DNA from: Eledone cirrhosa
Lineage: Eukaryota
Reading direction: 5' to 3'
Assembly: GCA_964016885.1 (NCBI GenBank)
Contig: OZ024759.1
Coordinates: 2,790,001 to 2,854,000 of the forward strand
Length of the DNA stretch: 64,000 nucleotides
How positions within the stretch are numbered: the first letter of the stretch is position 1; every line of letters starts with the position of its first letter. Made by a program: the position numbers and the translations under genes. Below, one piece after another: positions 30,412 through 61,318 of this stretch. Below the pieces are notes generated by a model. That model was not told the DNA's origin. It ran no database searches and saw only the letters and a list, made by a program, of their open reading frames with translations.

Positions 30412-30457
30412 ATTAGCCGACAATGTTTCGTCCTATTAAGGACTCATCAGGGCAATT
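30412..30457 (-). ncRNA. Minimal type I hammerhead ribozyme, predicted cleavage after GUC (between 30419 and 30418)
   Basis: Minus strand reads aattGCC-CTGATGA-GTCCT taat AGGAC-GAAA-Catt G-TC-GGCtaat: intact core, 5-bp stem II and a very short quasi-palindromic stem III. Confidence 0.9.
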
Positions 30458-30874
30458 AAAACAACAAGAAATAATATCGGCAGATACAAGCCGGAAGCTC
30501 CGAAGAATATGGAGTGTACATACACTAAAGTATTGCAAAAATATATAATAAAAATATATGATAAAAATTACTAAGGATGTATATAACATTAAGAACCATA
30601 TTACAAATATAGTCCAAAGCAAAAAAAAACACTAGAGCTAAACAAAGGTGGTTATATAGAGCAGGAATTATATATAATACAATATATAATATACCTTTAC
30701 CAACATTAAAATTACAATAAAAATCAAAAGATACAATATGCATATGTATATATGTGCGCACACGTACACACACATACACATACAACAATACACACATCCA
30801 TCTTCAACTGCACAAATTAAACCTTATTAAGAATTTGAATATAAAAATAAGCATGATAGGAATGAAAATAATAA

Positions 30875-33180
30875 TCATCATCATCATCATCATCATCAGC
30901 GTTTAACGTCCGTGTTCCACGCTTGCATGGGTTTGGACGGGGGTAGTCCCACTTGAGGCAAGAGTGATTGTCTTGCTCGCATAGGACTGTCTGGCAGGTT
31001 TTCTACAGTTGGATGCCCTTCCTAACACCAACCACATTTACAGTGTGGGTCTGGGAGGTTTTTACCGTGTTGCCTACACGGCCACATTACAGCGTGGACT
31101 GTGTGTTTTTTTGTCGTGACACCTACACGATCTCATTTGTTTCGGCCTCGAAGGCGCGGCACCAACATAACTTTACATAGAACGGGGTGGTGTGGATCGG
31201 GTGGGGGTGGTGGGACGGGGTGTATTTGTTAGAGATGCCTACTGGCTGGAGTAGGTTTTACTATATATTTAGGTAAGGCGGGTCTTCTCTGTTACTGAGT
31301 ACCGCCAAAGGTCTCGGTCCAGTGACATTGTCTTGGAGAGGTGTAAGTGTGTGATGTCGGAGTTTATCAGCTCGTCCCAGGTTTTTCTAGGTCTGCCTAT
31401 TCCGTGACTACCGTCTATCTTTATTGCCCTGCACTTTGTTATACAGCTATCGACTTTCATGCGCATCACGTGTCCATACCAACGTAGCCTTCTCTCGAGT
31501 AAACAACATCTGATCCCTCTTATCTCTAATTTATTCCTTAGTTCGTTTATGCTTTGCCGTTCACGTATATTACTGTTACACATCCAGCGGAGCATGCAAG
31601 CTTCGTTCCTCTCTAGTCTGCGTATATCCTCTGCACACAATGCCCAGGTCTCACTGCCATGCAGCATTGCTGTTCGTATGCAGGCATCGTACAACCTGCC
31701 TTTCATTTTTAGTGAGAACCCTTTAGCAGCTAATAGTGGTATAAGCTCTCTGAACTTTTTCCAACCAGTTCTGACTCTAGCTACAGTACTTTCAGAGCAC
31801 CCTCCCCCACTGCTGATTTTATCGCCCAGGTAACGGAAGCTGTCTACTATTTCTATAGAACCCTCTGCGCAATTGAAAGAGCTAGTATTTTGTGGGCACT
31901 TGCTGCTACTTATTGCACCAGAGCACCGGCCACATGTAAAATCTATGTTCTTAGTTAGCCTACCTGTGATCCCACTACATCTTTTATGCACCCATACTTT
32001 GCATTTAGGACATAAAATGGAGTTTCTACCTACGCCTTTCCTACACACCGAGCACGACCATTTCCCAGAAGGGACCGCCGCCTTGTTTTCTTTCCTACAA
32101 ACTAGTACTTTGGTCTTAGCCAGGTTAATTTTAAGTCCTTTTGACTCTAGGCCGTGCTTCCATGTTTGGAATTTCTTCTCTAGCTCGGCCATTGATTCCG
32201 CTATGAGTGTCAGGTCGTCTGCGTATAGGAGTTCCCATGGGCAGCCTGTCTTGAACTCCTCTGTTATGGCCTGAAGGGCAATAATAAATAGTAGTGGACT
32301 GAGAACAGAGCCCTGATGGACGCCGACTTTTACGCTAAACTCTTCACTATATTCGTTGTTAATTCTAACCTTGCTGACTGTTTCTTTATACATGGCTTGT
32401 ATAGCCCTCACAAGCCATTCGTCAACGCCTAGTTTTCTAAGAGCCCACCAGATAATGGAGCGGGGGACTCTGTCGAAGGCTTTCTCCAAGTCGACAAAAG
32501 CTAAGTAGAGGGGTTTACCTTTAGCTAGGTACTTCTCTTGTAGTTGTCGTACTATGAAAAGAGCGTCTGTGGTACTTTTGCCTGACACAAACCCGAACTG
32601 CATTTCATCTAGGTCAATTCTCTCTCTGATTAGTTGCGCTATTACTCTTTCCGTGACCTTCATGACCTGGTCGATTAATTTAATGCCTCTATAGTTACTC
32701 CTATCTAGGGCGTCTCCTTTACCCTTATAACAGTTAACGATGATGCTGCTATGCCAGTCCTTCGGAACAACCCCGTTTTGTACGACTTGGTTAACTATGC
32801 GGGTGACCATGGTGTGTCCCACCGTGCCAGATGCCTTCAGCATCTCAGCAACTATTTCCGAAGGCCCAGCCGCCTTACCAGTCTTCATATCCTTGATTGC
32901 CTTACTTATTATACTCCCCTCGACTAACACTGCTGGTCCCTCTATTGGGTCGATATGGGGGAGACTGCCTTTCTCCCAATTATTCTCCTCATTTAGAAGC
33001 CTTTCATAGTGACACTTCCAAGCTACCTTCTTATCAGCGTCGGTGATGGCAAGTGTGCCATCGTCGTTTAGTACACACTTCTCCCCGACAATATCACGGT
33101 TTTCCTTGACGCATTGCCTAGCAATCCTGAACACCTCACGTTTTTGGTCATCGCGTTGTAGAACATGCTTGAACTTTCTT
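30875..33180 (-). mobile_element. RTE-clade LINE, 5'-truncated, young, nested in the PLE 3' region
   Basis: Uninterrupted RT ORF, 3' UTR and (GAT)n tail at 30875-30897. Possible AATAATAAT target-site duplication. Confidence 0.93.
31269..33179 (-). CDS. RTE reverse transcriptase, N-terminally truncated (no endonuclease), with an inserted PHD finger
   Basis: Motifs YKGKGD, NYRGIKL, FVDLEKAFDRVP, GVHQGSVLSPLLF, LLYADD and FRYLG; C4HC3 pattern CSVC..CPKC.xxxxH.xxC..CGRC. The frame is open upstream of the GTG to 33179. Confidence 0.9.
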   Translation of the reverse strand, partial: RKFKHVLQRDDQKREVFRIARQCVKENRDIVGEKCVLNDDGTLAITDADKKVAWKCHYERLLNEENNWEKGSLPHIDPIEGPAVLVEGSIISKAIKDMKTGKAAGPSEIVAEMLKASGTVGHTMVTRIVNQVVQNGVVPKDWHSSIIVNCYKGKGDALDRSNYRGIKLIDQVMKVTERVIAQLIRERIDLDEMQFGFVSGKSTTDALFIVRQLQEKYLAKGKPLYLAFVDLEKAFDRVPRSIIWWALRKLGVDEWLVRAIQAMYKETVSKVRINNEYSEEFSVKVGVHQGSVLSPLLFIIALQAITEEFKTGCPWELLYADDLTLIAESMAELEKKFQTWKHGLESKGLKINLAKTKVLVCRKENKAAVPSGKWSCSVCRKGVGRNSILCPKCKVWVHKRCSGITGRLTKNIDFTCGRCSGAISSSKCPQNTSSFNCAEGSIEIVDSFRYLGDKISSGGGCSESTVARVRTGWKKFRELIPLLAAKGFSLKMKGRLYDACIRTAMLHGSETWALCAEDIRRLERNEACMLRWMCNSNIRERQSINELRNKLEIRGIRCCLLERRLRWYGHVMRMKVDSCITKCRAIKIDGSHGIGRPRKTWDELINSDITHLHLSKTMSLDRDLWRYSVTEKTRLT

Positions 33181-34558
33181 TATAATAATAATAATATTAC
33201 TAATACGTCTACCCAATATACATGAGGTAATAATATGATATAATTATAAGTAGCACATATAATATATAATAAATAATACAGTTATATACTATATAATACA
33301 ATATAATAGGATAGATAATCTCCGGTTAATTTACACAAACAATATAGATGTCACAATAATAATACAATAATAATATATTAACATTTACAATATACAATAT
33401 ACTAACATTTATCATAAACAATATAAATGTACTCAAGTTAACAAATCAGTTCATATTGGGTTACAGAGTAGGTGAGGAAAAATAAATTGTACAATACCTC
33501 AAACAAATTTTGATGGTACAGAAGTACAAACATCTTACATGATATATAAAGTTTAACATATCATAAAGTTACATATAATTAACAGTAAGTAATAAGGATC
33601 AATATTACAATAAAAAATACAATATAATATAATATATTATATAAAATAAATTAATACAATATAATATATAATTACTTATAATTACAAGGTTGGTAGACAG
33701 ACATGTATATGGATGAGTGAGTAAGTGCCAGACAGTAAATATAATGCACAGTAGTATTACAAATAAAATATAAAATATAAAATATAAAATATAGAATAAA
33801 ATAAATAAATAGAATCAACCGGAAATTAAAAAACAAAAACAAACGTATACATTTAGGTCTCACATGCAGTTAAGTAGTTAAGTAAAAGCTAAGGAAACAA
33901 CCCCTGTAAATGACTCGAAAAGCCTATTTGATAAATTAATATTAAAAATATTTAAACTATCCAATAAGGCAGTATAATATTAGCTATAGTTTAAGTCATT
34001 AAAGTTTATAAACGTTAATATTTCGTTCCAAATGTTTACAAAAAGGAATGAAATTTTTTTATTATCATATACATAACGATATCCAAAGAACTGACTTAAG
34101 CAGAATCAAGGTAGGCTAATAGGGACAGAAATGAAGAAATGTATGGAGGATGCAAAGGGGCATAAAATATAGTCGATATACTATATTACATAATAGAAAG
34201 GAGCGTAAAGGAGGGGGGGTTAAATATAATATAATCATAGTCAATTTGGAGGGGTTGACAATAAGTTTATGTGCGTATGGGGGTGGTGGAAGAGGGAGGG
34301 GGTTCCAAAGAAGAATCCAAATAAAAATAAAAATAAGAATAAAATAAAATGAATAGCGTAAAATATATAATCTTATATACATTCATAAGGTGTAACAGTG
34401 AAAATTTAATGCGTAAGAAGATAGATATGGTACAGTAGCCAAAAGATTATGAGAGCTAGAATGAAGAGTCATCAAAAACCAATGATAATAATGATGTTAA
34501 CAATAATGTTGGCAAACAAAAAGACCTAAACTAAAAAATAAATAATGGAATATATCAG

Positions 34559-37126
34559 CTAATGGGTACAATTTATACTACTAGAACGTTTAGGTTTATA
34601 ATAAAAGTATGAATTAGAAATAGCATGGGGGCAAGAAGAGAATATCTCAGACTTTCTATTAAGTAAAGATGCGCTAGAGAAGATTATAGAGTGTGTCTCG
34701 AGGATACAGAGATTACAAAACTTAGTATGTGTAGAAAGGTGGTTAGAGCGTGCTACTAAACGCCAGTTAAGGCTATATGGTATATTAGCTATCTTAAGAT
34801 CCCAGATATAATGTGCTAAAGAAGTAGAATTCTTAAACTTAACATGCTTGAAATTAGAGATATGAGAGTTAAACCTAGTCTTAAAAGTGTTAGATGTAGA
34901 GCCTATATAAGTTCTATTAGAGGAATTAGTTATAACTTCGCAAGCATAGACAATGTTCTTAGAAAGGCAGTTACCGTTTAAAGGGCAGTTAGCACTCACT
35001 CTACAATTGCACTTCTGGGTGTTATTGGTTGACTCAAGTGGTGATGCATTACACGTAGGATTGCTATTAGATAAGGACTGTTCTGGTGGTAATGCATTGC
35101 CAGATCTGTTTGGACTAGTAGTATGTAGAGAGGAGAATCCATCCCTAATTTTCTTATTGTTAGTGCTAGCTAAATGAGAACTAATATTAGGGGTGGTAGA
35201 GAATGAAAGTTTAATAACATTTTTATTAAAAATACTATGGTATTTATGAGAAGGGGGGAAATTTTTCTCTAAGATAGAGAAGAAAGACCTAGGGATATTA
35301 GTTGATACATCCTGATTATATGGCGGGTTAAAATAAGTATTTAATCGCCTTCTATTTTTATTCTTACCGACTCTACCATTATCAAATATCCCACCATCGA
35401 GACTAGGGTTACTACAAGGATTAGTTAAAGCCGCATTCATAGAATCAGCCAAAATTTCATTAAGTCTATTACAGTTTCTACCTCCAGTAGATCTGCTGCT
35501 GTCCGGAATCCCATCATAAGGATCAGGGCCAATGATAGGATCAGTAGGAGCAACATTATCAGAATAAGATCCAGCTAAATTATCACCAATGTGTGAGCGC
35601 TCAGGGGGTTCAACTTGTTTCCTAGAGGTATTATATTCACTATTGCGGGTTCGGTGGGTTAACTTATGGGTGGGTTCAGATACACCTATATAATTTTTAC
35701 GGTTACTATGTTTGCTACTCACATTCATGGCCATGTTATGTGATATTATGTTATTATTACTAAAAGCAGACGGAGACTTTCTAAGGTTACTATTATTATA
35801 GTGTATTTTACTAGAGTAACCTGAATTTGCTAGGGCATTATTATAGTACTCCGCATGTTCATTAAATGTTCCTACATCCTTAGAGAGTGTGGAAATCCTA
35901 TTAGATACACCCTTAATTATAGAGCTTATCATAGACTTGGGGTGGTTTGAATTGGGACTAACATAAGAAAGTATTTCATTAGGCTTATGGAAGGGTTTAA
36001 AACTATTAGTGACCAAGTCTAAAGTCACATCTAAAAAGTTAACCGCTCTATCATTTCTATCTATCGTGATCGAAAGGTTATAGCTTTTAAAAAACTTATA
36101 AAGCTTCTTCTTATTATGTTCTACATTGTTGGTGCTAGAGTTAATTACAAACAATGCATCATCACGATATAGTCCGCCTATAAGGTGCGGGAAGGTAGCA
36201 TATATTTCATTAAGGAGGAACAACCCAACAAGATCAGTAACCTGGGCCGAATCACTCGAACCCATTATAACGTCGAAATTGTTGGGCGTGTTTTTACGGA
36301 TCCAAAATGTGTCCTCAAATTTAATAATAGTTTTACGGGCTGCTAGTATAATATCTACCTGTGATCGTGTAAGGCTGGACACTCTCATGGCCAACATTAA
36401 AGCTTTATTGAGGAGGATGGGTGAAATTGATGTGTAGTAGGCATCAATATCGAATTGGATAAACTTATTAGATTCAAGTCTATTAATCCCGGAGAACCAA
36501 TCTATAACTTCCTTAGTGTTCCCCCATAGGTTAAAATTAACCTTATCCCTAACATCTGGTATAATAAGGTCAAGGATGTTTTTACTGATAATGGCTATAT
36601 CAGACTTAGAAGGACAGATGAGTCTAACAGAGGGGTTACTAATAAAATCAACCTTATGATCCTTAAGAGTGAATCTCGGTTCTCGAGGGTAATATGGCTG
36701 GGTATACTTATCGAGGCCGAGGTCAGAGACAATTCTAAGGCCATCACTATTGATGTGGTTCAAATTTTCAAGTGTAGTTTTTTTATAGTTTCTATGCAGC
36801 TCCTTATAAATAAAGTCGCGGTAAGCACTATAATCCATGGAGTATAGATTTTTAGTCTTATCCGCCGGGACAAGAATGGACTTATTCTCACCGAAACCCT
36901 TAACAATATTTTTAAGTCTAGACTGGAACTTATCAAAATTATTATAATTTCTATGTCTATTATTTGGCCTATACCTAATATTTTTGACAAGAGAGAGTAA
37001 GTCACTTTCAAAACTATCTAACAGAATATTGTGTGGTGGGCTCTTATAAGTTTTGAAGCCATAGTTATTAAAAATAGTTCTATTCCTGGGGTCCTTCCTA
37101 TTCTTATTATTATCATAGTGGAAAGC
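34559..37126 (-). CDS. Penelope-like RT-GIY-YIG protein, about 855 open codons, N-terminus missing
   Basis: The frame stays open upstream of the 36838 ATG (AFHY..YGFKT..PP..FESDL..ILVPADK). RT motifs FIQFDIDAYYTSI, MGSSDSAQ, GLYRDD and NFLDVTL; linker CNC-x5-CPLNGNC; endonuclease NIVY..TYIGST..FKTRFNSH..CNLCILE..LLNRKSE. Confidence 0.92.
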   Translation of the reverse strand, partial: AFHYDNNKNRKDPRNRTIFNNYGFKTYKSPPHNILLDSFESDLLSLVKNIRYRPNNRHRNYNNFDKFQSRLKNIVKGFGENKSILVPADKTKNLYSMDYSAYRDFIYKELHRNYKKTTLENLNHINSDGLRIVSDLGLDKYTQPYYPREPRFTLKDHKVDFISNPSVRLICPSKSDIAIISKNILDLIIPDVRDKVNFNLWGNTKEVIDWFSGINRLESNKFIQFDIDAYYTSISPILLNKALMLAMRVSSLTRSQVDIILAARKTIIKFEDTFWIRKNTPNNFDVIMGSSDSAQVTDLVGLFLLNEIYATFPHLIGGLYRDDALFVINSSTNNVEHNKKKLYKFFKSYNLSITIDRNDRAVNFLDVTLDLVTNSFKPFHKPNEILSYVSPNSNHPKSMISSIIKGVSNRISTLSKDVGTFNEHAEYYNNALANSGYSSKIHYNNSNLRKSPSAFSNNNIISHNMAMNVSSKHSNRKNYIGVSEPTHKLTHRTRNSEYNTSRKQVEPPERSHIGDNLAGSYSDNVAPTDPIIGPDPYDGIPDSSRSTGGRNCNRLNEILADSMNAALTNPCSNPSLDGGIFDNGRVGKNKNRRRLNTYFNPPYNQDVSTNIPRSFFSILEKNFPPSHKYHSIFNKNVIKLSFSTTPNISSHLASTNNKKIRDGFSSLHTTSPNRSGNALPPEQSLSNSNPTCNASPLESTNNTQKCNCRVSANCPLNGNCLSKNIVYACEVITNSSNRTYIGSTSNTFKTRFNSHISNFKHVKFKNSTSLAHYIWDLKIANIPYSLNWRLVARSNHLSTHTKFCNLCILETHSIIFSSASLLNRKSEIFSSCPHAISNSYFYYKPKRSSSINCTH

Positions 37127-37132
37127 ACTATA

Positions 37133-37170
37133 TATTACATAACTATATATATATATATAGTTATGTAATA
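37133..37170. repeat. Perfect 38-bp palindrome centred on (TA)n at the PLE 5' junction
   Basis: TATTACATAAC-(TA)8-GTTATGTAATA. Confidence 0.9.
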
Positions 37171-37188
37171 AACAACATAAGATAATTA

Positions 37189-37248
37189 TTTCTTTTACCA
37201 GTGGTTTCTTGAAAGCAAATAAATCTGCTTTAAGTCGTCAGAATGAAA
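37189..37248 (-). ncRNA. Degenerate type I hammerhead ribozyme motif
   Basis: Minus strand reads tttcatt-CTGACGA-cttAAAGCA gatttatt TGCTTTcaa-GAAA-CC act GG-TA-aaagaaa. The core is intact, but the base of stem II and one stem I pair are mismatched. Confidence 0.6.
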
Positions 37249-37574
37249 AAAACATGGTGTTTTTATTAAATTTGGATTTGAAAACAAAAATATAAGAAAT
37301 ATGAAAGTGAGGCTGGGGAAGCAACGAGTGAAGAAGAAATAAGCTGTCACATAGGCGTATATGTATCAACCAGCATAGACAAATACATACATATACATGA
37401 AGTCATAATAAATAAATGGGTCTATATAGTCTAACTCAGTACTGAAGTGGGGCTACTGACCTCCCAGACAAACCAAGGGGTCTGCATCCTGCTTATGTAC
37501 AGTCTTTTATATATATATGTGTGTGAGTGCATGTGTGTAGTGTGTGTGAGTGCATATATGTGTATAAATGTAAA

Positions 37575-43800: not shown

Positions 43801-45787
43801 GACTTGCCTCCTTCCAGTGTGGACAACTCTGGCTAGACTTGCCTCCTCTCAGTGTGGACAACTCTGGCTAGACTTGCCTCCTCTCAGTGTGGACAACTCT
43901 GGCTAGACTTGTCTCCTCCCAGTGTGGACAACTCTGGCTAGACTTGCCTCCTCTCAGTGTGGACAACTCTGGCTAGACTTGCCTCCTCTCAGTGTGGACA
44001 ACTCTGGCTAGACTTGCCTCCTGACGTGGATGACTCTGGCTAGACTTGCCTCCTAGCCTGGACAACTCTGGCTAGACTTGCCTCCTTCCAGTGTGGACAA
44101 CTCTGGCTAGACTTGCCCTCCTCTCAGTGTGGACAACTCTGGCTAGACTTGCCTCCTCTCAGTGTGGACAACTCTGGCTAGACTTGCCTCCTCTCAGTGT
44201 GGACAACTCTGGCTAGACTTGCCTCCTGACGTGGATGACTCTGGCTAGACTTGCCTCCTAGCCTGGACAACTCTGGCTAGACTTGCCTCCTCCCAGTGTG
44301 GACAACTCTGGCTAGACTTGCCTCCTCCCAGTGTGGACAACTCTGGCTAGACTTGCCTCCTCCCAGTGTGGACAACTCTGGCTAGACTTGCCTCCTTCCA
44401 GTGTGGACAACTCTGGCTAGACTTGCCTCCTCTCAGTGTGGACAACTCTGGCTAGACTTGCCTCCTCTCAGTGTGGACAACTCTGGCTAGACTTGCCTCC
44501 TCTCAGTGTGGACAACTCTGGCTAGACTTGCCTCCTCTCAGTGTGGACAACTCTGGCTAGACTTGCCTCCTTCCAGTGTGGACAACTCTGGCTAGACTTG
44601 CCTCCTTCCAGTGTGGACAACTCTGGCTAGACTTGCCTCCTTCCAGTGTGGACAACTCTGGCTAGACTTGCCTCCTCTCAGTGTGGACAACTCTGGCTAG
44701 ACTTGCCTCCTCTCAGTGTGGACAACTCTGGCTAGACTTGCCTCCTCTCAGTGTGGACAACTCTGGCTAGACTTGCCTCCTCTCAGTGTGGACAACTCTG
44801 GCTAGACTTGCCTCCTTCCAGTGTGGACAACTCTGGCTAGACTTGCCTCCTTCCAGTGTGGACAACTCTGGCTAGACTTGCCTCCTCTCAGTGTGGACAA
44901 CTCTGGCTAGACTTGCCTCCTCTCAGTGTGGACAACTCTGGCTAGACTTGCCTCCTCTCAGTGTGGACAACTCTGGCTAGACTTGCCTCCTCTCAGTGTG
45001 GACAACTCTGGCTAGACTTGCCTCCTCCCAGTGTGGACAACTCTGGCTAGACTTGCCTCCTTCCAGTGTGGACAACTCTGGCTAGACTTGCCTCCTCTCA
45101 GTGTGGACAACTCTGGCTAGACTTGCCTCCTCTCAGTGTGGACAACTCTGGCTAGACTTGCCTCCTCTCAGTGTGGACAACTCTGGCTAGACTTGCCTCC
45201 TCTCAGTGTGGACAACTCTGGCTAGACTTGCCTCCTTCCAGTGTGGACAACTCTGGCTAGACTTGCCTCCTCTCAGTGTGGACAACTCTGGCTAGACTTG
45301 CCTCCTCTCAGTGTGGACAACTCTGGCTAGACTTGCCTCCTTCCAGTGTGGACAACTCTGGCTAGACTTGCCTCCTTCCAGTGTGGACAACTCTGGCTAG
45401 ACTTGCCTCCTCCCAGTGTGGACAACTCTGGCTAGACTTGCCTCCTTCCAGTGTGGACAACTCTGGCTAGACTTGCCTCCTCCCAGTGTGGACAACTCTG
45501 GCTAGACTTGCCTCCTCTCAGTGTGGACAACTCTGGCTAGACTTGCCTCCTCTCAGTGTGGACAACTCTGGCTAGACTTGCCTCCTCTCAGTGTGGACAA
45601 CTCTGGCTAGACTTGCCTCCTCTCAGTGTGGACAACTCTGGCTAGACTTGCCTCCTTCCAGTGTGGACAACTCTGGCTAGACTTGCCTCCTCTCAGTGTG
45701 GACAACTCTGGCTAGACTTGCCTCCTGGCATGGACGACCCATCTAACCCATGCAAGCATGGAAAAATGCATGCTAAATGATGATGAT
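40889..45787 (+). mobile_element. RTE-related non-autonomous element (bipartite SINE-like) split by the 35-bp array
   Basis: The left part has GTGGTTGGTGTTAGGAAGGGCATC. The right part has the RTE tail CCATCTAACCCATGCAAGCATGGAAAA..TGATGATGAT. Confidence 0.7.
41079..45735. repeat. 35-bp minisatellite AGTGTGGACAACTCTGGCTAGACTTGCCTCCT(CT/CC/TC)C, about 133 highly homogeneous copies
   Basis: Direct 35-nt periodicity. Variation is almost confined to the TCTC/TCCC/TTCC positions. Confidence 0.99.
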
Positions 45788-46297: not shown

Positions 46298-46381
46298 CAG
46301 GGTGTCCCAAAAATGTATACACACAGGCAATATTTATTAGAATGCTGTTGAAGTGTGTATACATTTTTGGGGGACACCCTG
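46298..46381. mobile_element. 84-bp Tc1/mariner-type MITE
   Basis: TIRs CAGGGTGTCCCAAAAATGTATACACAC and GTGTGTATACATTTTTGGGGGACACCCTG. TA on the left flank; the right flank reads TC. Confidence 0.8.
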
Positions 46382-46544
46382 TCTTTCACTCTTTAGTCTC
46401 ATCAATCCCCTCACCTATCCCACATACCCAAACATTTCTTCTCATAAAACCAATCAAAATGAAGTAACATTGACCACCATTAATGACTGACAACTGATAT
46501 CTACTTTCTCAAAGATGTAGCAAATCATTCTATCATTACCATAA

Positions 46545-46637
46545 CAGAAGTCTGATGAGCTTGTGATTCCAGAGTCAGGCCCGATTCATACAGATCCAGC
46601 CTTGAGCTGATCAATCGTGAAATGCGCGTCACATCTG
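46545..46637 (+). ncRNA. Type I hammerhead ribozyme motif with a long stem II, on the sense strand of the SPAG17-like intron; predicted cleavage after 46630
   Basis: CAGAAGT-CTGATGA-(60-nt imperfect hairpin)-GAAA-TGCGC-GTC-ACATCTG. Stem I pairs at 6 of 7 positions and loop III is near-palindromic. Followed by (TG)n. Confidence 0.72.
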
Positions 46638-46641
46638 AATA

Positions 46642-46687: not shown

Positions 46688-46744
46688 GTGTATATATACA
46701 GATAAACTTGGTTCTAAATCTTTCCCTTCTCTCTTCCATTCTAG

Positions 46745-47534
46745 ATGACAATATCACAATGGCTATGTTTGCTATGGTGGAGTGTCCTAGTTACGCCACA
46801 ATGAAATTCAATATCAAAACCCAGGAGAACCACACAACAATTGCCAACGGATCGGTCCTCAACGTCTTACCTAGTGGAATTTTCTTCATGTCAATAGGAG
46901 AGTCAGCAGGAGAGATCCTGAAACTGAGCCAAGATGGCACCCTTTGTTATACAAACATCAATGACCAGAAGCAAAGTAACTTCTTTGATCCGATCGAGAC
47001 TACCTATTTCTTCAAACATAACTCCTACACAATCTGTGAGACTACAGACATCAACAACAATAATTTCTACGTGAACTTCTTGGGGGAGAAAGAAATTGTT
47101 CAGGAGAACGTCTCCCCTCAAGACGCAGACACCCCTCCTCCAAATGACAGATTCAAAAGTGGGGCTCAGCACAGTCCAAAATTTTTCATTCTTCACAATG
47201 ATGGCTGCGTTGATGAAATATTCAAGAAAGAATTGGTTGAGTATTTTATCGAAGAAGCTGAACAGCAGCCGAATTCTGTGGTTTTAAGAGATGATTACCA
47301 GGACAATTCAGGAATGACAGGGATTACACTTCTGAAGCCAATCCTCAAGAGTGCTTCCGATAATTGGTTCCTCGACTATGAAACCAATAGCATCATTCCA
47401 CCAGGTTTCCTGGAGCCCGGTGAAATTTTACGCAATTATAATGCAAGCACAAAACAGCTAACGAAGTGTCCAAGCATACTGGAAACAAGACAGTTTACAC
47501 AGTATCCACATATGGACAAAATTATGCATAACAA
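46745..47534 (+). CDS. SPAG17: 790-bp internal coding exon of the SPAG17/PF6-like gene
   Basis: Pyrimidine tract plus ctAG ends at 46744; donor aa|GTAAGA at 47535. The phase-1 start joins exon 30016-30160 in frame (T+AT = Tyr). Motifs VECPSYAT, ICETTD..NNFYV, HSPKFFILHNDG, VVLRD, ITLLKP, IIPP and CPSILETRQF resemble the SPAG17 C-terminal region as I recall it. Confidence 0.87.
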
Positions 47535-47589
47535 GTAAGACTGCCTCTTTAAATGTAAACAATGATATATGCATTCACATACATTATAT

Positions 47590-50081: not shown

Positions 50082-50513
50082 AAAAGAAATAGGATTTCAC
50101 TTCAAGCATAGCTTTATACAATATGTATAAATATTGCGTATCTCCAAAGAAATACGGTTTTAGGAAGCCGTAGCTATGCAAACACTGGGGGGGGGGGGGC
50201 TAATGCACTCTGGTGATGTCCAGCAGAAGCAATGGGGACAACCGTCTATGCATTTCAGGCTTAACTGGCCTTCGTCAGGACGGTCCCTCCCACCGCTTAC
50301 GACTGCTGGCCAAGAAGACAGGGGAGAATATATACTTTTCTCGTCTGTGTAAATGAGGTGATTAATCTCATTTGCATATGAAGCTGCATAAGTTGGCTCA
50401 ACTTATAATAGAAAAGAAATAGGATTTCGCTTCAAGCATAGCTTTATACAATATGTATAAATATTTTGTATCTCCAAAGAAATACGATTTTAGGAAGCCG
50501 TAGCTATGCAAAC

Positions 50514-51487: not shown

Positions 51488-54230
51488 CATCATTATCATC
51501 ATCATTTTATGTCCACTTTTCCCCGCTTGCAAGGGTGGGATGGGTCCTATTCAGCACAGTATCTCTCCACTTGTCACGGTCCTTTGTCATCTCCTCCGTG
51601 AGCTTAATCAATCTGAGATCTGCTCTCACCATCTCCGCCCATGTTTTTGTGGTCTTCCTCGACTGTTTCTTCCTTCTACTGGCTTTTCTTGGTACTTCTT
51701 TACCCAGAGGTCATCCTCCATGCGTATCACATGTCCATACCAATGCAGTCTTCTCTCCCGTACACTACAGCCTATCCCTCTTATACACAGTTTCTCTCTC
51801 AACTCGTCTATGCTTTGTTGTTCACGCACATTGACATTACACATCCAACGGAGCATGCTTGCTTCATTTCTCTCCAGCCGTCACATATCCTCCACAGTTG
51901 CTGCCCATGCAGCATCGCGCATCTCACACAGGCATCATATAACCAGCCTTTCATACGCAGGGAGAAACCCTTCTTTGTCAACAGAGGAAGCAGCTCCCTA
52001 AACTTCTTCCAATCCATCCTTATTCTAGATACTATGGCCTCGGAGCACCCTCCCCCCTTACTAATCTGATCACCTAGGTATCAAAAACTATCAACCACCT
52101 CTATAGATCCTACCTGCATTTGAAAAATGTGTCTATCACTGCGACTTCTACTCTCAAATTTCCTTGTACATCTACTGCATACATAGTTTTCCCTACTTGT
52201 TAGTTTGCCTGCTATCTCACTACATCTCTTGTGTACCCAGGATCTGTATTGTTTACATTTTATAGAATTTATGCCAACTCCTTTCCTACTTATTGAACAT
52301 GGCCATTTCTCTGATGGAATCAGAGTTTTGTCCTTTTTCCTACTTATCAACCCTTTAGTCTTAGCTAGGGTCACTCTCAGTCCTCTTGATTCCAACTGCT
52401 GTTTCCATAGCAGAATTTCTTCTCTAGTTCCTCTACTGATTCTGCTATAAGAACCAGATTGTCAACACAGAGAAGTTCCCATGGGCAGCCAGTCATAAAC
52501 TCCTTTGTTATGGCTTGGAGGACTATAATGAACAAGAGTGGGATGAGGACCAAACCCTGATGTACTCCTACTTGTATCTGGAATTCCTCACTAAACTCCA
52601 TTTCTACTCTCACTTTACTGACAGCACCTCTGTACATAGCTTGCAATGTCCTCATAAGCCATTCCTCTACACCTAGTTTCCGTAGGGACCACCAGATGAC
52701 AGATCAGGGTACCCTATCAAAGGCCTTCTCTAGGTCAACAAAAGCTAAGTATAGTGGCTTATTCTTCTCTAAGGACCTCGCTTGTAGTTGTCTCACTAAG
52801 AAGAGGGCATCTGTTGTACTTTTCCCAGGCACAAAACCAGGGTACGCCTTGGTATTTGACACCATTTGTCTGTCTCGTTGCCTAACTAGCAAGAAGTCAA
52901 TCTGGCTTATGTGCTCGCCTGATTTGTAGGTTATTAGGTGGTTGGTAGGCTTCTTGAAGTTAGTGTTGCAAAGGATTAGTTCACTTGCATCACAAAACTC
53001 AAGAAGCCTCACTCCTTCTTTGTTCCTTGAGCTAGAACTATGCCCACCATGTACCTCAGTGTATTCATCCTGGAGCTGTCCAACATGACCATTGAAGTCT
53101 CCTGCTAGCATAATGATGTCTCCGTCCTCTGTCATTGTGGCTGTTTCTAAAAGTTGCTCATAAAAGCAGTCTTTCTCTTCTTTACCTAGGCCTGCTTGGG
53201 GAGCATAGGCAGAGATGATTGTCAGTATTCTCCTGCCTACAACTAATCTAATCTTAATTATTCTATTACTGAGTCTAACTACTTCTATTGTCTTATTGAT
53301 CCACCTCTCAGCCAGTAAAATGCGCACCCCACCTAACCCATCATCCTTACCTACCCAGAAAAGCTTATAACTAAGATGTTTGCCTATGATTAGTCTCGCA
53401 GAGGCACCTCTCCATCTCACCTCTTGCACGCAGCACACATCCACATGTCTTCTCTCCAGCATCTTCACTATCTCACCAGATCTACCTGTGAGAGTGCCAA
53501 CATTAAGTGTAACAACCCTGAGATGTGACACATCCACCTGTCTTCTCTCCAGCATCTCCACTATCTCACCAGATCTACCTGTAAGAGTGCCAACATTAAG
53601 TGTGACAACTCTGAGATGTGACACATCCACCTGTCTTCTCTCCAGCATCTCCACTATCTCACCAGATCTACCTGTGAGAGTGCCAACATTAAGTGTGGCA
53701 ACTCTGAGATGCGACGTCTTCATATTCTTGTTCTTGTTCCTGTTGTGCAATTGCTTGAAGACAGTCGGAGAGTTCTTGCACATGGCCGCACCAGCCACCC
53801 CACTACCGTGCTCAGCCCTAACATGGTTAGTGTTATTGCTGTTTACGCAGTTATTGCGATATTTATTTGTTGTTGTCCTCATAATTGTTATGGCATTGAT
53901 ACACTGGTTGGATGCCCTTCCTAACACCAGCTCCACTTTACAGCATGGACCGGGTGCTTTTATTTGTGCCACCAGCACTCGGGAAGTCATCTTACTGGAC
54001 TTAGCGGGCTTCTCAACCTCACACCAATTTATTCGGAGCGGTAGCTCTCCTAGACAGGTTGCCTACACTATGGCTTACGGAGCTTCTGACTGCCCCTGTG
54101 TCTGCTCTGAGCGGAACTGGGTTTAAGGTGCTATATGCACGAGGGAGTTGTTAGTGTACAGTGTCAGGCAAGTAAACCGGATGTGGTGGAGGTGGGGTGG
54201 GAAAGGAAATGGCAATCTCCTAACACAGCT
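51488..54230 (-). mobile_element. RTE LINE with 5' UTR and endonuclease, a large in-frame internal deletion, a 3 x 93-bp duplication and a degenerate RT
   Basis: ORF 52704-53990 has TLNVGTL, CVQEVRW, AYAPQ, GDFNGH and QIDFLL, then jumps to FVPGKSTTDALF. YADD has decayed to CVDN. GAT tail at about 51488-51505. Confidence 0.9.
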
Positions 54231-54478: not shown

Positions 54479-54658
54479 GATTTCTTTATTTGCCACCAGG
54501 GCACAAAAGGTAGGGACAGATACAAGGGGTGAAGTTTACATATAATTAACGAGTACAAAAATATAACAATGAAATAACAACAACAAACGAAGTCCTCAAT
54601 AGGGAGGGGGCATTAACATGGGTCGCACACACACCCCGGAAAAAATGTGCAACCCTTC

Positions 54659-57600
54659 TCAGGAGCACAAAGAGTAGGTGCTTCCCTCGTCTCCTCTTTT
54701 TCCTCTTCTTTCACCTACAGGCTGATATAGAGAGAAGACCCATTCACTCTGGCCATTCTCCCTACTTTCACCCACCATCTCATAAAACTTGCTGGGGTAG
54801 AGCACCTCTCTCTCCATTCTGATCCTTCTTTTAAAATGGTATTTGAAAAAGGGGACCAGTTGTTGGCCGGAGAGAAAGGTGTCTGACCTCAGCCCTTTCA
54901 GCCTCGTCCACCATACAACTTCTTTAGCCATGGCTATCACACAGAGAAAAACCGCCTCTCCTTCGTTTTAAAAGGGGGGGGGGGGCGGTTTGATCGTGAC
55001 AATGGACTCGGTGGTCAACCGGATTGGTGCTACCCTCGACAGTAGTCATTCCACATAGCCCCACAGGTCAGCAATGCCTGGGCAGTGTACGAATGCGTGC
55101 GCAACGGTTTCGTCGTCATGCACGCATCTCGGACAGATCTTATTCAAAGGATCCCTACCCAGGCTCCCATGCATGTGGAGCTTGTCTCGAACGGGTAGAG
55201 CCCCTCGGTAGCACTGCCAAGCCAGGGACTTTTGGAAGTTGTCCATCGGTCCAGGGCCAAACGTCCTACCGAACAGACTGGCCAGTTCATCTTCCTCCAT
55301 GCCTAGTGCTTCTCCGAGAGCATTGTCGCACCTGCTGCGTACCAACCCTCTATAGAATGTCGAGGTGGAGTCTCCACTGATTGCCGGGTGCGCTTTCCAG
55401 AGGGCCGTGAGCGCCTGGGCACATTCAATGTGCCAGTCGCCCACTTTTCTCGGTCTTTGCTTGACCCAGGATTGCAGCTCGGTGAGCGAGACGAGTCTGG
55501 GAAAGGCTCACCTCACAAACGGGGCCCACACCGGTTGACCGGTGAGGAATACCTGGAGGTGCCGTAGCCTTAATGCGTGTTTACGCATCTGTAGCCACGG
55601 CATCCCCAGCCCTCCTTTCGAAGGGTGTTGACAGCAGATGGATCTCCTCACCAAAGGGGTCCGCTTGTTCCAAAGAAATTGGAACAGCGCGCACTCCATT
55701 TTGGCGAGTCTTTTCACTGGGCAAGGCACGACGGTCAAGCGGTAGTAGATGACGGATGCTATATAAGTATTCGCCACCTCCGCTCGACCTTTCAGGGATA
55801 GTTTGCACTGGGCCCACTTCTGGGTGAGTGCAAACACCCTGGCCGTTACCTCGTTCCAGTTTTTCTCTACCTGGAGGTCTGGTCCGAACCAGACCCCAAG
55901 CAGCTTCACCGGGCCCTCCGTCCAGCGTCCGACGACGTCGTTGGAGGGCATCGGTTTGCCTCTCCATGTTCCGAGTTGCAAACCGACGGACTTATCCCGG
56001 TTCAGCTTGGCTCCTGTAAACCTTTCATATTCCTCCAGTAAGGTGCCGATCTCACCGATTTGCGAGATTTTCGACACCATTACTGTCACGTCATCGGCGT
56101 AGGCCGACGCCGCTTTCTGCAATCCCGGTTCCAAAGGGATTCCCTGCAACCGCTCCAACTTCTGTAGTAGTGGCTCAAGACCCAGCACATACAGAAGGGA
56201 GGAGAGAGGGCATCCCTGTCGGATGGATCGCATGATTTGGAACGGCTCCGAGAGGTGGCCGTTCACCTTGACCCTTGAGCAATCCAACCCCTGAAAACGG
56301 GTCCGAAGCCTGCCGCCGCGAGCACCGCATCCAGGTAACGATGGTCAACCCTATCGAAAGCTTTAGATTGATCCAAGTTGATCAGGGCCCCACCAAAGCC
56401 GGGTTCATTCCCTACCCTCTCTATGATGTATCGCATAAGATTGTCGTGAATGGACCTGGATGGGATTGCGCATGTCTGCGCTTCTCCCACCAGGTTTCCG
56501 ACGACAAGCGCCAACCTCTTCGCTAACACCTTGGCCAAAATCTTTAACTCTGTATTTAGCAGAGTTATGGGCCTGAAGTTACTTATGTCATCCCCCTTGT
56601 TCTCATCCTTCCTCACCAGCGTAACTACGCCCTTGGTCACAGAACTGGGAATTCTCTCATTCTGCTACCAGTTGCAGTAGACCGCTTCGAGGATATCAGA
56701 AAACAAGTCCGGCATCGCTACATATAGCTCGTAGGGTAGACCATCGAGACCCGGGATTTGCGTTTGCCGCATTGGCTCAGCGCCGCCCCTATCTCAGCAG
56801 CTGAAATCGGCCTTTCGCAGGACTTAGCCTCCGCGTCCGAGAGGCGCGGCAGACCGTCGAGGTATGGATTGAAATTCATAGTCTCACCCAGCGCGCCGCC
56901 CCTCTCGAACAGTCGTGCAAAGTGCCGCTGAAAGGCCGCACACATCTGCCCAGGTTCAAGGATCACACGCCCATCCTGGTCCTTCAAAGACCGAATCGTG
57001 GACTTGTTCCCACTTTTTGCCTCTGTCACTCGGGCCCAGCTAACAGCTTTGGCTCCCTCATTACCCAGATCACGTATTTTACTCCTGACAACGCAGCCTT
57101 CATGCTTCACCTCAAAGAACTGGTCTAAGGCCATTCTTGATGCCAGCACGCTGGCTACATTGCCACGCCTAATCGCCTCTTCTACTCTATCTACGAATTC
57201 CCTTTCCGTCTTGTTCCTATCCCTTGCTAATTCCTGACTAAAACCTATCGATTCTATTCTAATTGCTCTCTTAAGAGAGCTCCACCACCTGTTGTAAACA
57301 ATTGCCCCTGTCAAACTCTGCTTAACTAACGTGCTAATCCGTTTACTGTAAGCTTTGCTTGTCGGTAAGGACAAGTTCAGCTTCCAATAACTGGGTCCCT
57401 GTCTATGGGTTCTATCAAGGTTGGCTATGCAGGTCACTAACTTGTGATCCGAATAGTCAACTATGAACATTTTTGGACAGCTAAATGTGTCCCTATCCTT
57501 CTCTCTAACTAGGACCCTATCTAGGTACGACCTAGATGTTCCACTGCGATTGGTCCACGTCCATAGTGGTACAGTCGGAAAATCTAGTCGATATCTATCG

Positions 57601-58123
57601 GCCAGGTCAAATCGGCCGATTAACCTTTTGAGGCTTTTACACCCCCCTCTATTGGCACATGCCCCTACATAGTCCCAACGTGCATCCAGGATACCATTCC
57701 AGTCCCCCACTAAAAGCAAGGAGCGGGACGTTCCCAGAAAAGTTTCCAGACGGAAGTATTTCGGCCGCGCTGCCCAAAAAGGGGCGTACACAGCAATTAG
57801 TCTAAGGGCTCCACTTTCACTACTGCCGACGTCTAAAACCACCAGTCGACCCTCCGGGTCCAGGTGCACCTTCTGTATGGCGAGGCCCAGGTGTTTTCGC
57901 AGCAGAACGACAACCCCCCCCCCCCCCCCCCCGGTTGACAGAGAGATGCGAAGATCTCAAAGTCGTCGAAGAGGGGCGCCAGTTGGTGCTCGCTGCTGAT
58001 CCTGGACTCGCAAATAGCCATTACATCCATTCTATGCGACCTGAGATCGTTTAAAAGTTTGCCTTGTTTCCAAGACAGTCCCAGGCCGCGTACATTCAGA
58101 CACCCAACTCTTATATCAGCCAT
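54659..58123 (-). pseudogene. Tx1-like ORF2 (APE endonuclease, RT, C-terminal CCHC), frameshifted
   Basis: MADIRVGCLNVRGL, VYAP, GDWN, SYLDR, YSDHK, WKLN, NFRPITLLN, DQSKAFDRVDH, RQGCPLS, AYADD, LLGVWF, GGLGMP and CPRC..ETVAHAFVHC, spread over several frames. Confidence 0.9.
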
Positions 58124-58144
58124 GTTGGTTAAAAGAGGAAGGAC

Positions 58145-59909
58145 CTACCTGTTCGGCTCCTGAGGAGCAGGTTGCACAATATCCATGGGTGTATTGGAGG
58201 GGTTGTTTGGTGGGGTGGGGGTGTTTGGTGAGGTGTGGGCGGGGAAACGTTTCAAGAGGACGCGGTTATAGGGTCGAGTACATGTTTTCCCCACGTCCTC
58301 AGGAAAGTTCTCTCTTAGTTTTGCATAGGTGTCCATTGGGAGTCTTATCATTTTTAAATGCGGTTTGTTGGCCGCGCTTGCAAAGAATTGCCCTTCAGTT
58401 TCCACCGAAGGGTCTTTGTGTATTGTTTTTACTAGTTCTTTGTTATTTGTGTTAATGTATGTATACTGTTTTATTTGTGTTGTGTTTGTTTGTTGTTCTT
58501 GTGTGTGCTTACGTTTTGTTGTATGTGTTATGTTTTGGGGTGGGGAGGATTTTGTTTGTTCTGTTTGTTTTGTTTTTGTTGGTTGTTGTGTGTTTGTTTC
58601 GTTTATGTTCGAGTGGTGCTTTCTTTTTTTCCTTTTTACAGGTTGGAAGGGTCCCCCCTCTTCGTCACTAGGTGTCGTTTCAGCTGGGTCCTCGTCCGTG
58701 CTGTCGGGTAGTGGTGTATTTTGGGGTTTTGTTGTGTTTGTGTGTGTTTTTGGAGTTGTTTTGGGTGGGGCCGTGTCTTGTGTTATTTTTCCGTGTTGTT
58801 TTTGTTGTTGTTGTGGTGGTGGTAGTGGTGGTGGTGGCGGTGGTGGTGTGTGGGGTGTAGGCAAAAGAGCCTTTTTTTTGCCAATTGAGGACAGGCAGCC
58901 CTTAGATGACCCCTGCTTGAACAGTAGTAACATATGGGCCTCCTACCCTCGGCTGAAATGTATATAAATGTTTCTCCATCGAGGGACACCCTCTGTGGTA
59001 TTCTAGCTATTCGTTCTGGTCTCATTTGGACCAGAACCTCCACGCTCAAACCGCCGAAAACGTCTGTGGTGACTTCTCCTACTGAGAGGATTCCGTCCTC
59101 GTCTTCTAAAAATCCTATTAGTACCCAGGAAATGCATGCATTTGGCCGGATTCCGGAGACTCTTATTTTCTGCGTTCTTTTCCCTAAATATGTGTGGAAA
59201 AATGTGTATAGCTTGGAAACAATTGGCGCCACAGAGTATTTCCTGGCCGTCAATTGATTCTTCATTAGCACCGTTATATTCCCATAGAGTGGCCCTTTTT
59301 GTATGAACGATATATCACTCCACACATTTTTCAGGACCAGCTCAATTTCTTTTTGGGATAATTGAGCTGGTTTCCTTGTTATGTTGGAAATTGTTCTGAA
59401 AGATATCGTTCTTAGTGTCGTGTCTCTTTTGATTTCTTGTGGGGAGGTGATTGTGAAGTCTCCTCCTTCTTTGAAAGTTACATACTGTTTTGCTTGCTTC
59501 ATCTTTTCTCTCAGAGTTGTAATGTCCAGTTGCTTGCAGGTTTGTGTTTTCCGGACCGCCTGTGCAAAGGAGGCACCAGTAGTGGGTTCGCTTTGTTTGG
59601 TGTCATCGTTAATTTTTCCTTGGTTGGTGTTGTGACTCTTGCTGTTATTGTCATTGTTGTTTTTGTCGGCGTTTATGTGACTTTCTGGGTTTCACCCATT
59701 TTTACAAATTTTTCTTTTAATTCCGTGTTCCATGTTTCTTTTGCAGAAATGAGGAGGGAAGACTTGGAGCCTTGTGCTTCTAGCTTCTCTGTATCACCTT
59801 TCTTAGGGGACGTGGCTTTCTCGTTAGGATGAGATGTGAAAATTCCGTCCATTTCTATCAGTTTGCCGTATAAATTTTTAACTGGAAAATTCGCCCCAAA
59901 AAGGGGCAA
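58145..59909 (-). pseudogene. Tx1-like ORF1 (gag-like, CCHC knuckle, P/T/Q/K-rich tail), frameshifted
   Basis: CYYCSSRGHLRAAC. Split into ORFs 59673-59909, 58783-59502 and 58145-58933. Homologous to 62537-63663. Confidence 0.82.
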
Positions 59910-60061
59910 AAATAAATAAACTCAAAGTTTGACGACCAAGGCAAGGGGTTAACGTATATTACAGTATAAAAAAATTAATCAAAACTCACTTTTGAGTAAG
60001 TAAATCCAACTCGGTAGCCGAACTTGTTCACACACACGTCAACACACGTCTCTCATATACG

Positions 60062-60989
60062 AGATGTTATGTGAGATATTATGTGAGGTAAAGCCTTTAC
60101 TGTGAAAATACAATAGTATATATAGAGTAATGTAAATGTTATGTGAGATATTATGTGAGGTAAAACCTTTACTGTGAAAATACAATAGTATATATAGAGT
60201 AATGTAAATGTTATGTGAGATATTATGTGAGGTAAAGCCTTTACTGTGAAAATACAATAGTATATATAGAGTAATGTAAATGTTATGTGAGGTATTATGT
60301 GAAGCAAAGCCTTTACTGTGAAAATACAATAGTATATATATAGTAATGTAAATGTTATGTGAGGCATTATGTGAGGTAAAGCCTTTACTGTGAAAATACA
60401 ATAGTATATATAGAGTAATGTAAATGATATGTGAGGTATTATGTGAGGTTAAGCCTTTACTGTGAAAATACAATAGTATATATAGAGTAATGTAAATGAT
60501 ATGTGAGGTATTATGTGAGGTAAAGCCTTTACTGTGAAAATACAATAGTATATATAGAGTAATGTAAATGATATGTGAGGTATTATGTGAGGTAAAGCCT
60601 TTACTGTGAAAATACAATAATATATATAGAGTAATGTAAATGATATGTGAGGTATTATGTGAGGTTAAGCCTTTACTGTGAAAATACAATAATATATATA
60701 GAGTAATGTAAATGTTATGTGAGGTATTATGTGAGGTAAAGCCTTTACTGTGAAAATACAATAGTATATATAGAGTAATGTAAATGATATGTGAGGTATT
60801 ATGTGAGGTAAAGCCTTTACTGTGAAAATACAATAATATATAGAGAGTAATGTAAATGTTATGTGAGATATTATGTGAGGTAAAGACTTTACTGTGAAAT
60901 ACAATAGTATATATAGAGTAATGTGAATGCTTTGTGAGGTAAAGCCTTTACTGTGAAAATACAATAGTATATATAGAGTAATGTAAATG
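60062..60989. repeat. 72-bp tandem repeat, about 13 units, running directly into the right TIR of the piggyBac-like MITE
   Basis: Unit GTGAGGTATTATGTGAGGTAAAGCCTTTACTGTGAAAATACAATAGTATATATAGAGTAATGTAAATGTTAT. Confidence 0.97.
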
Positions 60990-61252
60990 CTAAGGGGTTA
61001 AACAGTTTTTAATGAAAGTTGATTAATTTTCTTCAAATACTTTTGAATAAACATGCTCTGCTTATTTCCTTGATGCCTCACTAACTTTTTCCCAGCTCTA
61101 ACCTAACTCTTCTCACAACATTTGTTTTGTATGATATAAACTTTGAGTTATCACCTCGGTCTGTGGCTGGCAATTACAATCTATAAGTCAGACTATACTC
61201 TCCTTTGAGATTTCATTGTATAGTTCAACTTTTCATATATATATATATATAA

Positions 61253-61318
61253 CACCATTTCCGAAAACAATTTGTTTCACCTCAAATGGATCATCAGCTG
61301 GTTTAAATGGAAATGGTG
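61253..61318 (-). ncRNA. Type I hammerhead motif inside a roughly 157-bp island (61251-61407) between two (TA)n tracts
   Basis: Minus strand reads CACCATTTCC-atttaaacc-AG-CTGATGA-tCC atttga GGt-GAAA-CAA a TTG-TT-TTc-GGAAATGGTG: intact core, 10-bp distal stem I, weak stem II. Confidence 0.68.

What the first reader, a model, noticed from the sequence alone, without database searches (positions are those of the whole stretch)
30412..61318. Five different hammerhead motifs in 31 kb, all next to microsatellites
Seen: CUGANGA...GAAA...UH cores with complementary stems at 30412-30457 (-), 37189-37248 (-), 46545-46637 (+), 50241-50284 (-) and 61253-61318 (-). Their stems are unrelated, yet each has a palindromic or near-palindromic stem/loop III (ACATTGT, ACCACTGGT, ATGCGCGT, ATGCAT, ACAAATTGT), and each lies near (TA)n or (TG)n. 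Inference: several distinct PLE or retrozyme families target microsatellites in this genome, and the genome-wide ribozyme count could be very large and unannotated.
Basis: partly seen in the sequence, partly recalled or inferred. Interest (0 to 1): 0.75.

Follow-up and report, generated by a model that had tools for sequence, protein, structure and literature searches.

The report
Hammerhead ribozymes of Penelope-type jumping genes
Five hammerhead-ribozyme motifs, predicted but not shown to cut, sit in introns of a sperm-tail gene as the ends of five repeat families beside TA repeats; two end Hydra-type Penelope jumping genes and three are likely non-coding relatives, a known arrangement that this animal genome carries an estimated 100,000-200,000 times.

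Summary
All five motifs are at the stated places, and each ends a dispersed repeat family. H1 is the 3' end of a 4.76-kb Hydra-clade Penelope-like element (PLE) whose RT-endonuclease ORF lies in the window. H5 is the tip of a second Hydra family. H4 is a 330-nt non-coding tandem unit (retrozyme-like). For H2 and H3 no ORF was found.

Only H1 and H4 are intact in the window. H2 and H5 are damaged copies. H3's canonical core likely arose by CpG decay of a family core CCGACGA, and it belongs to a covarying type I fold with a ~60-nt helix II.

In 590 kb of evenly spaced genome, a descriptor found 22-42 motifs against 0-0.2 in shuffles. 26 of 27 independent events lay within 250 nt of (TA)n, against 48% background. 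A genome-wide core pattern gave 149,490 matches against 10,783 for its control. This window's density is ordinary for the genome.

Hydra PLEs with hammerheads and (TA)n targeting are published, including one from Octopus bimaculoides. This scan noted the same system before, in this genome and others. Cleavage and expression are untested.

The parts
30016..30120 (+). Coding exon of the host gene, SPAG17/PF6-like; the motifs lie in its introns (inferred)
   Evidence: phmmer to SPAG17 residues 1449-1481, E 1.3e-4
46696..47535 (+). Next SPAG17-like coding segment, starting about 60 nt after H3
   Evidence: phmmer to SPAG17 residues 1510-1733, E 4e-10
30258..30367 (.). (AT)55 tract at the 3' end of the H1 element
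   Evidence: sequence
30366..37127 (-). 5'-truncated copy of a Hydra-clade PLE (full unit about 4.76 kb, hammerhead to hammerhead), split by a LINE insertion
   Evidence: 37127-33182 is 95.9% and 30884-30366 is 93% identical to the unit in L031; tandem units in L031, L032, L034
34562..37127 (-). Open RT + C-terminal GIY-YIG frame of the H1 element; lacks the first ~107 codons of the full frame
   Evidence: weak GIY-YIG hit E 0.0035, no Pfam RT hit
30412..30457 (-). H1: intact minimal type I hammerhead about 45 nt before the element's 3' end
   Evidence: 36 of 36 fetched copies with the anchor pass the relaxed descriptor
30885..33181 (-). LINE fragment (RTE-like; label recalled) inserted into the H1 3' UTR
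   Evidence: 636-aa frame with RVT_1, E 2e-32; gap in the H1 map
37128..37159 (.). Junction: H1 5' break, a 10-nt inverted copy of the H2 3' end, and (TA)8
   Evidence: sequence
37160..37418 (-). H2 element; hammerhead 37189-37248 has two stem mismatches against its family (C.A at the helix II base, 10-bp helix II); no ORF found
46420..46641 (+). H3 element, an old family (77-85% identity); hammerhead-type fold 46545-46637 with ~60-nt helix II; family core CCGACGA; 3'-truncated against (TG)23
50082..50513 (-). H4: 1.3 units of a 330-nt non-coding tandem repeat between (AT)25 and (TA)14; intact hammerhead at 50241-50284
   Evidence: unit 322-332 nt in 7 overlapping or separate loci; 358 exact 38-mer copies, control 0
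61253..61409 (-). H5: 3' tip of a second Hydra-clade family; inverted arm with a 67-nt tail (61308-61409), then a damaged hammerhead (core at 61297), with TA on both sides
   Evidence: endonuclease frame ends 181-187 nt before the core in 6 places of a related subfamily

Best explanation
The five motifs are the 3'-terminal type I hammerheads of five repeat families, two of them Hydra-clade Penelope-like retrotransposons and three likely non-coding or truncated relatives, which were likely pasted into TA microsatellites of a SPAG17-like gene's introns by Penelope RT and GIY-YIG endonuclease. Shown: family membership; the ORF link for H1 and H5; the tandem 330-nt unit of H4; two fixed 3' ends per family (a main end, and a second end with a tail of 102, 67, 39-41 and 67 nt in H1, H2, H4 and H5); TA at the ends. 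Inferred: a tandem transcript is cut at successive hammerheads, which pair through their palindromic stem III, giving a unit-length and possibly circular RNA. The endonuclease would nick (TA)n, and target-primed reverse transcription would yield 5'-truncated, tandem and inverted copies, so most genomic copies are just the hammerhead-bearing tip. Copies then decay neutrally, as window H2, H3 and H5 have.
For: H1 flanks a 963-aa RT-EN frame in tandem units, with the Hydra motifs DKT, RWR, CxCX5C, CxxC and CxH and no CCHH (definition PMC8557442 section 11). An EN frame with the same motifs ends about 185 nt before H5 cores. H2, H4 and H5 folds match the Hydra hammerhead table in that paper's supplement: extra or mismatched bases at the helix II foot, palindromic stem III, U or A at position 17. 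Family ends read either TA or the fixed tail: H1 24 of 25, H2 25 of 27, H4 34 of 36, H5 24 of 27. In the sample, 26 of 27 independent events lie within 250 nt of (TA)4+ against 48% matched background, p 8e-8, and 41 of 42 stems III are near-palindromic. Stems covary across families and across H3 subfamilies.
Against: No cleavage, transcript, circle or empty site was observed. No ORF was found for H2 (25 loci) or H3 (45 short and 5 long loci), so their clade is inferred from end structure. For H3 the two-end pattern rests on few copies. No tree against reference PLE clades was built. The H1 unit (4.76 kb) and most tails are longer than the published <3 kb and 30-40 bp. As monomers the hammerhead fold is above the MFE for all five window copies and for the H4 and H5 family majorities; only the H2 majority folds as a hammerhead at MFE. 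Published tests show low activity of PLE min-HHRs (PMC4209133) and no cleavage in 8 of 9 Xenopus dimers. The H1 and H2 search queries contained TA, which biases their end counts.
Confidence: 0.87

Rival explanations
1. Chance core matches that lie near microsatellites only because this genome is full of them.
For: 32% of sampled positions (48% in regions with hits) are within 250 nt of (TA)4+. H3's canonical core is a mutational accident in this copy. Three of five window copies fail the strict descriptor.
Against: 0 strict hits in 20 shuffles of 590 kb against 22 observed, and 4 relaxed hits in 20 shuffles against 42. The reversed-sequence control gives 0. The genome pattern gives 149,490 against 10,783. 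Each motif is family-conserved at a fixed distance from a fixed end.
Confidence: 0.01
2. The TA tracts are mostly made or lengthened by the insertion itself (telomerase-like addition or slippage by the PLE RT), not chosen as targets.
For: Tracts at ends can be very long (over 1 kb in L033), and no target-site duplication can be read inside TA.
Against: TA lies on both sides of complete insertions (H4, H5). Unrelated families pile into the same tracts. Published Hydra families are listed as inserting into (TA)n.
Confidence: 0.12
3. The elements are PLE-mobilised, but their hammerheads no longer cut and act only as a structural or dimerisation handle for the RT.
For: Weak monomer folds; the H3 family spread with C at core position 4, a change reported to lower activity considerably in vitro (PMC3088659 passage); Naiads thrive without canonical hammerheads.
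Against: The catalytic core and NUH site are kept across up to 29 sequence clusters with unrelated stems (some singletons may be false). The same passage says the U4C viroid variant stays active enough in vivo.
Confidence: 0.15

Closest known systems
Hydra-clade PLEs, including Hydra-1_Obim of Octopus bimaculoides (Craig et al. 2021, PMC8557442; read: abstract, sections 3, 6, 11, 12, 15, passages, supplement part 2 of 59)
   Same: C-terminal GIY-YIG, DKT, RW[K/R], CxCX5C, CxxC/CxH, no CCHH; 3' type I hammerhead with palindromic stem III; (TA)n insertion; tandem and inverted copies with a tail.
   Different: The H1 unit is 4.76 kb (about 150 aa extra linker, 1.8-kb 3' UTR) against generally <3 kb. 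Tails are 39-102 nt against 30-40. None of the five hammerheads matches the listed Hydra-1_Obim motif (compared by eye). No listed Hydra hammerhead has H3's ~60-nt helix II or C4 core.
Minimal PLE hammerheads (Cervera and De la Pena 2014, PMC4209133; read parts 1-2 of 4)
   Same: Type I, palindromic loop 3 read as a dimer device, extra base at the foot of helix II, mostly solo copies from truncated PLEs, pairs on opposite strands 100-700 bp apart.
   Different: Counts given there are about 2,000-9,000 per genome; here the estimate is 1-2 x 10^5. Helix II there is 7-8 bp.
Metazoan non-LTR retrozymes (Cervera and De la Pena 2020, PMC7229834, passages and part 2 of 6; Li, Clavereau and Pollet 2026, bioRxiv 10.64898/2026.07.22.740005, parts 1-3 of 5)
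   Same: H4 is a ~330-nt non-coding tandem unit with one type I hammerhead; a 482-nt seven-copy array of another family turned up in the sample (L181).
   Different: H4 copies are dispersed 1-2-mers with PLE-type inverted arms in TA. Circular RNA is not shown. No cephalopod is named in the parts read.
Natural core-variant hammerheads (Perreault et al. 2011, PMC3088659; passages only)
   Same: U4C is mentioned as a viroid variant with low in vitro but sufficient in vivo activity.
   Different: Here C4 is the majority state of a whole animal retroelement family and comes with an extended helix II.

Membership tests
Hydra-clade PLE (H1) | Single ORF, RT with C-terminal GIY-YIG endonuclease | tested here: met
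   963-aa frame in L035 and open frame in the window; YRDD and YIG motifs; weak Pfam GIY-YIG only
Hydra-clade PLE (H1) | DKT in place of DKG; RWK-type motif; GxKF/Y not conserved | tested here: met
   ADKT at 196, RIRWR at 103, no G.[KR][FY] match
Hydra-clade PLE (H1) | CxCX5C linker, CxxC and CxH around E and N, CCHH absent | tested here: met
   CNCRVSANC, CNLC, CPH in the window frame (CxH lost by a frameshift in L035); one Cys between the GIY and YIG parts
Hydra-clade PLE (H1) | Canonical hammerhead near the 3' end; pLTR tandem or inverted structure with tail; (TA)n insertion | tested here: met
Hydra-clade PLE (H1) | Generally short (<3 kb; a tendency, not a diagnostic) | tested here: not met
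   4.76-4.80 kb between hammerheads in L031, L032, L034
Hydra-clade PLE (H1, H5) | RT phylogeny groups with Hydra references | not tested
   Reference PLE proteins were not available as usable sequences
Hydra-clade PLE (H5) | EN with CxCX5C, CxxC and CxH ending shortly before the hammerhead | tested here: met
   Profile hits to E 2.5e-76 in L238-L251; stop 181-187 nt before the core; RT pieces 41% identical to H1. Related subfamily, 80-90% identical to the window copy
Hydra-clade PLE (H2, H3) | Linked RT-EN ORF | tested here: inconclusive
   None colinear in 25 H2 loci, or in 45 short plus 5 long H3 loci; most copies are truncated
Non-LTR retrozyme (H4) | Non-coding tandem unit of a few hundred nt with one type I hammerhead | tested here: met
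   322-332 nt spacing; window copy 1.3 units
Non-LTR retrozyme (H4) | Self-cleavage and circular RNA in vivo | not testable with these tools
   Needs RNA data or an assay
Type I hammerhead (H3 family) | Core C3 U4 G5 A6 N7 G8 A9 | tested here: not met
   C4 in 71 of the 100 listed of 743 pattern matches (hand count); this CpG decays like the other CpGs. Sister subfamilies have U4
Type I hammerhead (H3 family) | Helices I-III around the core, with covariation | tested here: met
   15 of 27 pairs with changes on both sides, 88% paired, 0 of 500 shuffles as high. RNAalifold recovers helix II only. Helix I is only 2 firm pairs in H3 proper
Type I hammerhead (all five) | Site-specific self-cleavage | not testable with these tools
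   Bench assay needed

The most novel reading that the evidence does not exclude
H3 and its sister subfamilies form an undescribed, active type I hammerhead variant. Its helix II is a ~60-nt irregular, covarying hairpin with conserved internal loops, which let a C4 core spread to thousands of copies and may act as a tertiary stabiliser or RT handle. It would sit in the most hammerhead-rich genome among those whose counts I read.
Probability: 0.35. Interest if true: 0.55.

Novelty: new member of a known kind. Interest (0 to 1): 0.36.

Why it matters
PLE retrotransposition has no in vitro system (PMC8557442 section 15), and the role of PLE hammerheads is open. This genome offers a young, near-intact Hydra element (H1; top copies 98-100% identical) together with a small non-coding unit showing the same end pattern (H4). 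That is a compact pair for testing cleavage, circularisation, TA targeting and mobilisation in trans. The estimated 1-2 x 10^5 motifs exceed by about tenfold the per-genome counts in the papers read (2,000-14,255, by other methods). The long-helix-II C4 family is a natural test of core tolerance. The basic association is known, so this extends the picture rather than changing it.

Tried and rejected
Rfam: only H1, below the gathering score; the other hits are microsatellite artefacts. Reading the 892-aa frame as starting in H2: rejected, because the frame runs by chance through the H2/TA junction and the ORF is H1's. Assigning the Hydra ORFs near H2 in L053 and L062 to H2: rejected for L062, which has its own hammerhead; unresolved for L053. 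My recalled label Naiad/Nematis for H1: wrong, since Naiads have an N-terminal EN. Walks upstream of H3 and of its sister family found no colinear ORF. Sequencing runs: no RNA holder listed; no reads were laid. Lunse et al. 2017 is not held, so nothing is taken from it and it may already describe such variants. Literature searches for a cephalopod hammerhead census or a long-helix-II form returned only Craig 2021 as relevant to octopus. A 2026 O. vulgaris repeat annotation (PMC13282606, passages) has 0 occurrences of hammerhead or ribozyme. Supplementary alignments of PMC4209133 and PMC7229834, and the closed bioRxiv supplements, were not seen and could hold matching families. Look-ups of earlier scan notes by H3 or H4 sequence, by U4C words, and near this window returned nothing.
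Full report
Setting. The window is G000:C20:2790001-2854000 of a 3.0-Gb genome. I infer an octopus-like mollusc, without having determined it: named relatives of the PLE protein include Solemya velum and Argonauta hians, and earlier scan notes use that label. Two coding segments on the + strand match SPAG17 in order, so the motifs are read as intronic. H1, H2, H4 and H5 are antisense to that gene; the one sense copy, H3, is the most decayed.

Observation. All five motifs are present as described. A strict type I descriptor of my own, written after seeing them, finds H1 and H4 in the window and nothing in 400 shuffles of the 34-kb region. A relaxed version adds H5. H2 fails through two stem mismatches, and H3 through its long helix II. 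Each motif region retrieves its own dispersed family. Among fetched copies with the exact GAAA anchor, the relaxed descriptor passes 36 of 36 H1, 27 of 32 H2, 33 of 42 H4 and 9 of 23 H5. These loci are the best-scoring matches, not a random draw.

H1. Pairs of H1 motifs 4.76-4.80 kb apart enclose an RT plus GIY-YIG frame of up to 963 aa, about 97% identical to the frame at window 34562-37127. The window copy runs from 37127 to 30366 and is split by a 2.3-kb LINE fragment. The ORF beside H2 is therefore H1's. Its motifs (DKT, RWR, CxCX5C, CxxC, CxH, no CCHH) are those that define the Hydra clade (PMC8557442 section 11). That paper's supplement lists Hydra-1_Obim from Octopus bimaculoides with (TA)n preference, and tabulates Hydra hammerheads with the same build as H2, H4 and H5. 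No tree was built.

H5, H4 and H2. Walking upstream from a longer H5-type copy reached an endonuclease frame with Hydra motifs that ends 181-187 nt before the core. The window copy is an inverted arm plus a damaged tip. H4 is a 322-332-nt non-coding unit in partial tandems and inverted arms, with 358 exact 38-mer copies and 0 for the control; the window holds 1.3 units. H2 has the same end pattern, but no ORF was found in 25 loci. In H1, H2, H4 and H5 the end is followed either by TA or by a fixed tail of 102, 67, 39-41 and 67 nt. This is the PLE tandem/inverted/tail pattern described in section 6 of the same paper.

H3. This is an old family (77-85% identity) with more than 900 nt of non-coding upstream sequence and no ORF found. 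A 27-nt pattern allowing C or T at core positions 4 and 7 has 743 matches against 0 for the control. Of the 100 listed I counted by hand 59 CCGACGA, 12 CCGATGA, 11 CTGACGA and 18 CTGATGA. The position-4 CpG decays both ways like the family's other CpGs (12 CG, 8 TG, 4 CA of 27). C4 is therefore likely ancestral, and the window's canonical core a decay product. Profile searches showed sister subfamilies with U4, different stems I and III, and the same long insert. On 14 hand-picked rows of the 50 or more seen, a structure I drew by eye from them has 88% of cells paired and 15 of 27 pairs changed on both sides; 0 of 500 shuffles reach that, and slid controls give 25-38%. Both controls lean in favour of a structure derived this way. 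RNAalifold on its own recovers the long helix II (17 pairs, 7 with double changes) but not helices I and III.

Genome-wide. I took 59 evenly spaced 10-kb stretches (60 asked). The strict descriptor gave 22 hits in 12 regions against 0 in 20 shuffles. The relaxed one gave 42 in 22 regions against 4 in 20 shuffles and 0 on reversed sequence. Independently, a core pattern with six bases between GAAA and UH has 149,490 matches against 10,783 for the reversed control. It does not test pairing, leaves out H1, H2, H3 and H4 types, and may include other wirings. After merging hits within 1.2 kb, 26 of 27 events lie within 250 nt of (TA)4+ against 48% background in the same regions. The window's own density, 2 strict hits in 64 kb, is ordinary.

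Mechanism. Shown: anatomy, ORF links for H1 and H5, fixed ends, TA association and covariation. Inferred from the Hydra and min-HHR literature: dimer-dependent cleavage of tandem transcripts, a unit-length or circular template, and nicking of TA with target-primed reverse transcription. Against a simple picture: monomer folds are weak, and published activity is low or absent for many such motifs. Nothing here shows RNA.

Verdict. Real and ordinary in kind: new members of Hydra PLEs and of PLE-type retrozymes. The scan has noted this system before: 24 notes hold all five search words, in at least 3 genomes, one with the same reading in this genome, and 862 notes fit 'hammerhead' in this genome. 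Interest 0.36.

Noticed in passing
L181:1-3500 and L192:9000-10000: Seven-copy tandem array of a ~482-nt unit with one hammerhead and an internal TA tract, a retrozyme-like family not in the window; its stem I covaries between subfamilies.
   Followed up: partly
tails in L011, L040, L051, L219: The 3' tails of H1, H2 and H3-type families begin with a similar GCUCU...GAGC hairpin just past the main end; a candidate RT boundary signal, speculative.
   Followed up: partly
window 37127-37169 and L260 about 1055: A 5'-truncated Hydra copy starts right at the 3' end of a different hammerhead element, seen twice; same-site insertion or a template switch.
   Followed up: no
window 5505-29981: 24.5-kb array of a 48-nt unit (512 copies) ending 35 nt before a SPAG17-like exon.
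   Followed up: no
window 41082-45726, 60064-60941, 1-1620, 2451-3785: Further satellites: 35-nt x 133 (96% matches), 72-nt x 12, and two 15-nt arrays.
   Followed up: no
window 46293-46386: Small hairpin element with long terminal inverted repeats directly upstream of H3; MITE-like by eye.
   Followed up: no
window 52704-54062, 55000-59700, 62389-63900: LINE remnants with endonuclease and RT matches, one holding a 93-nt triplication in frame.
   Followed up: no
L094:2210-2759, L071, L091: Fragments of other PLE-like proteins (Neptune- or Penelope-like by recalled motifs) beside hammerhead elements.
   Followed up: no
L033:3112-3735 (-): Caspase-like frame (QACRG motif, recalled) within a ~7-kb duplication that also repeats an H1 tip.
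   Followed up: no
sample L138-L196: Motif density is about three- to fourfold higher on small chromosomes than on C1-C4 (strict 16 in 240 kb against 6 in 350 kb); small numbers, inflated by one array.
   Followed up: partly
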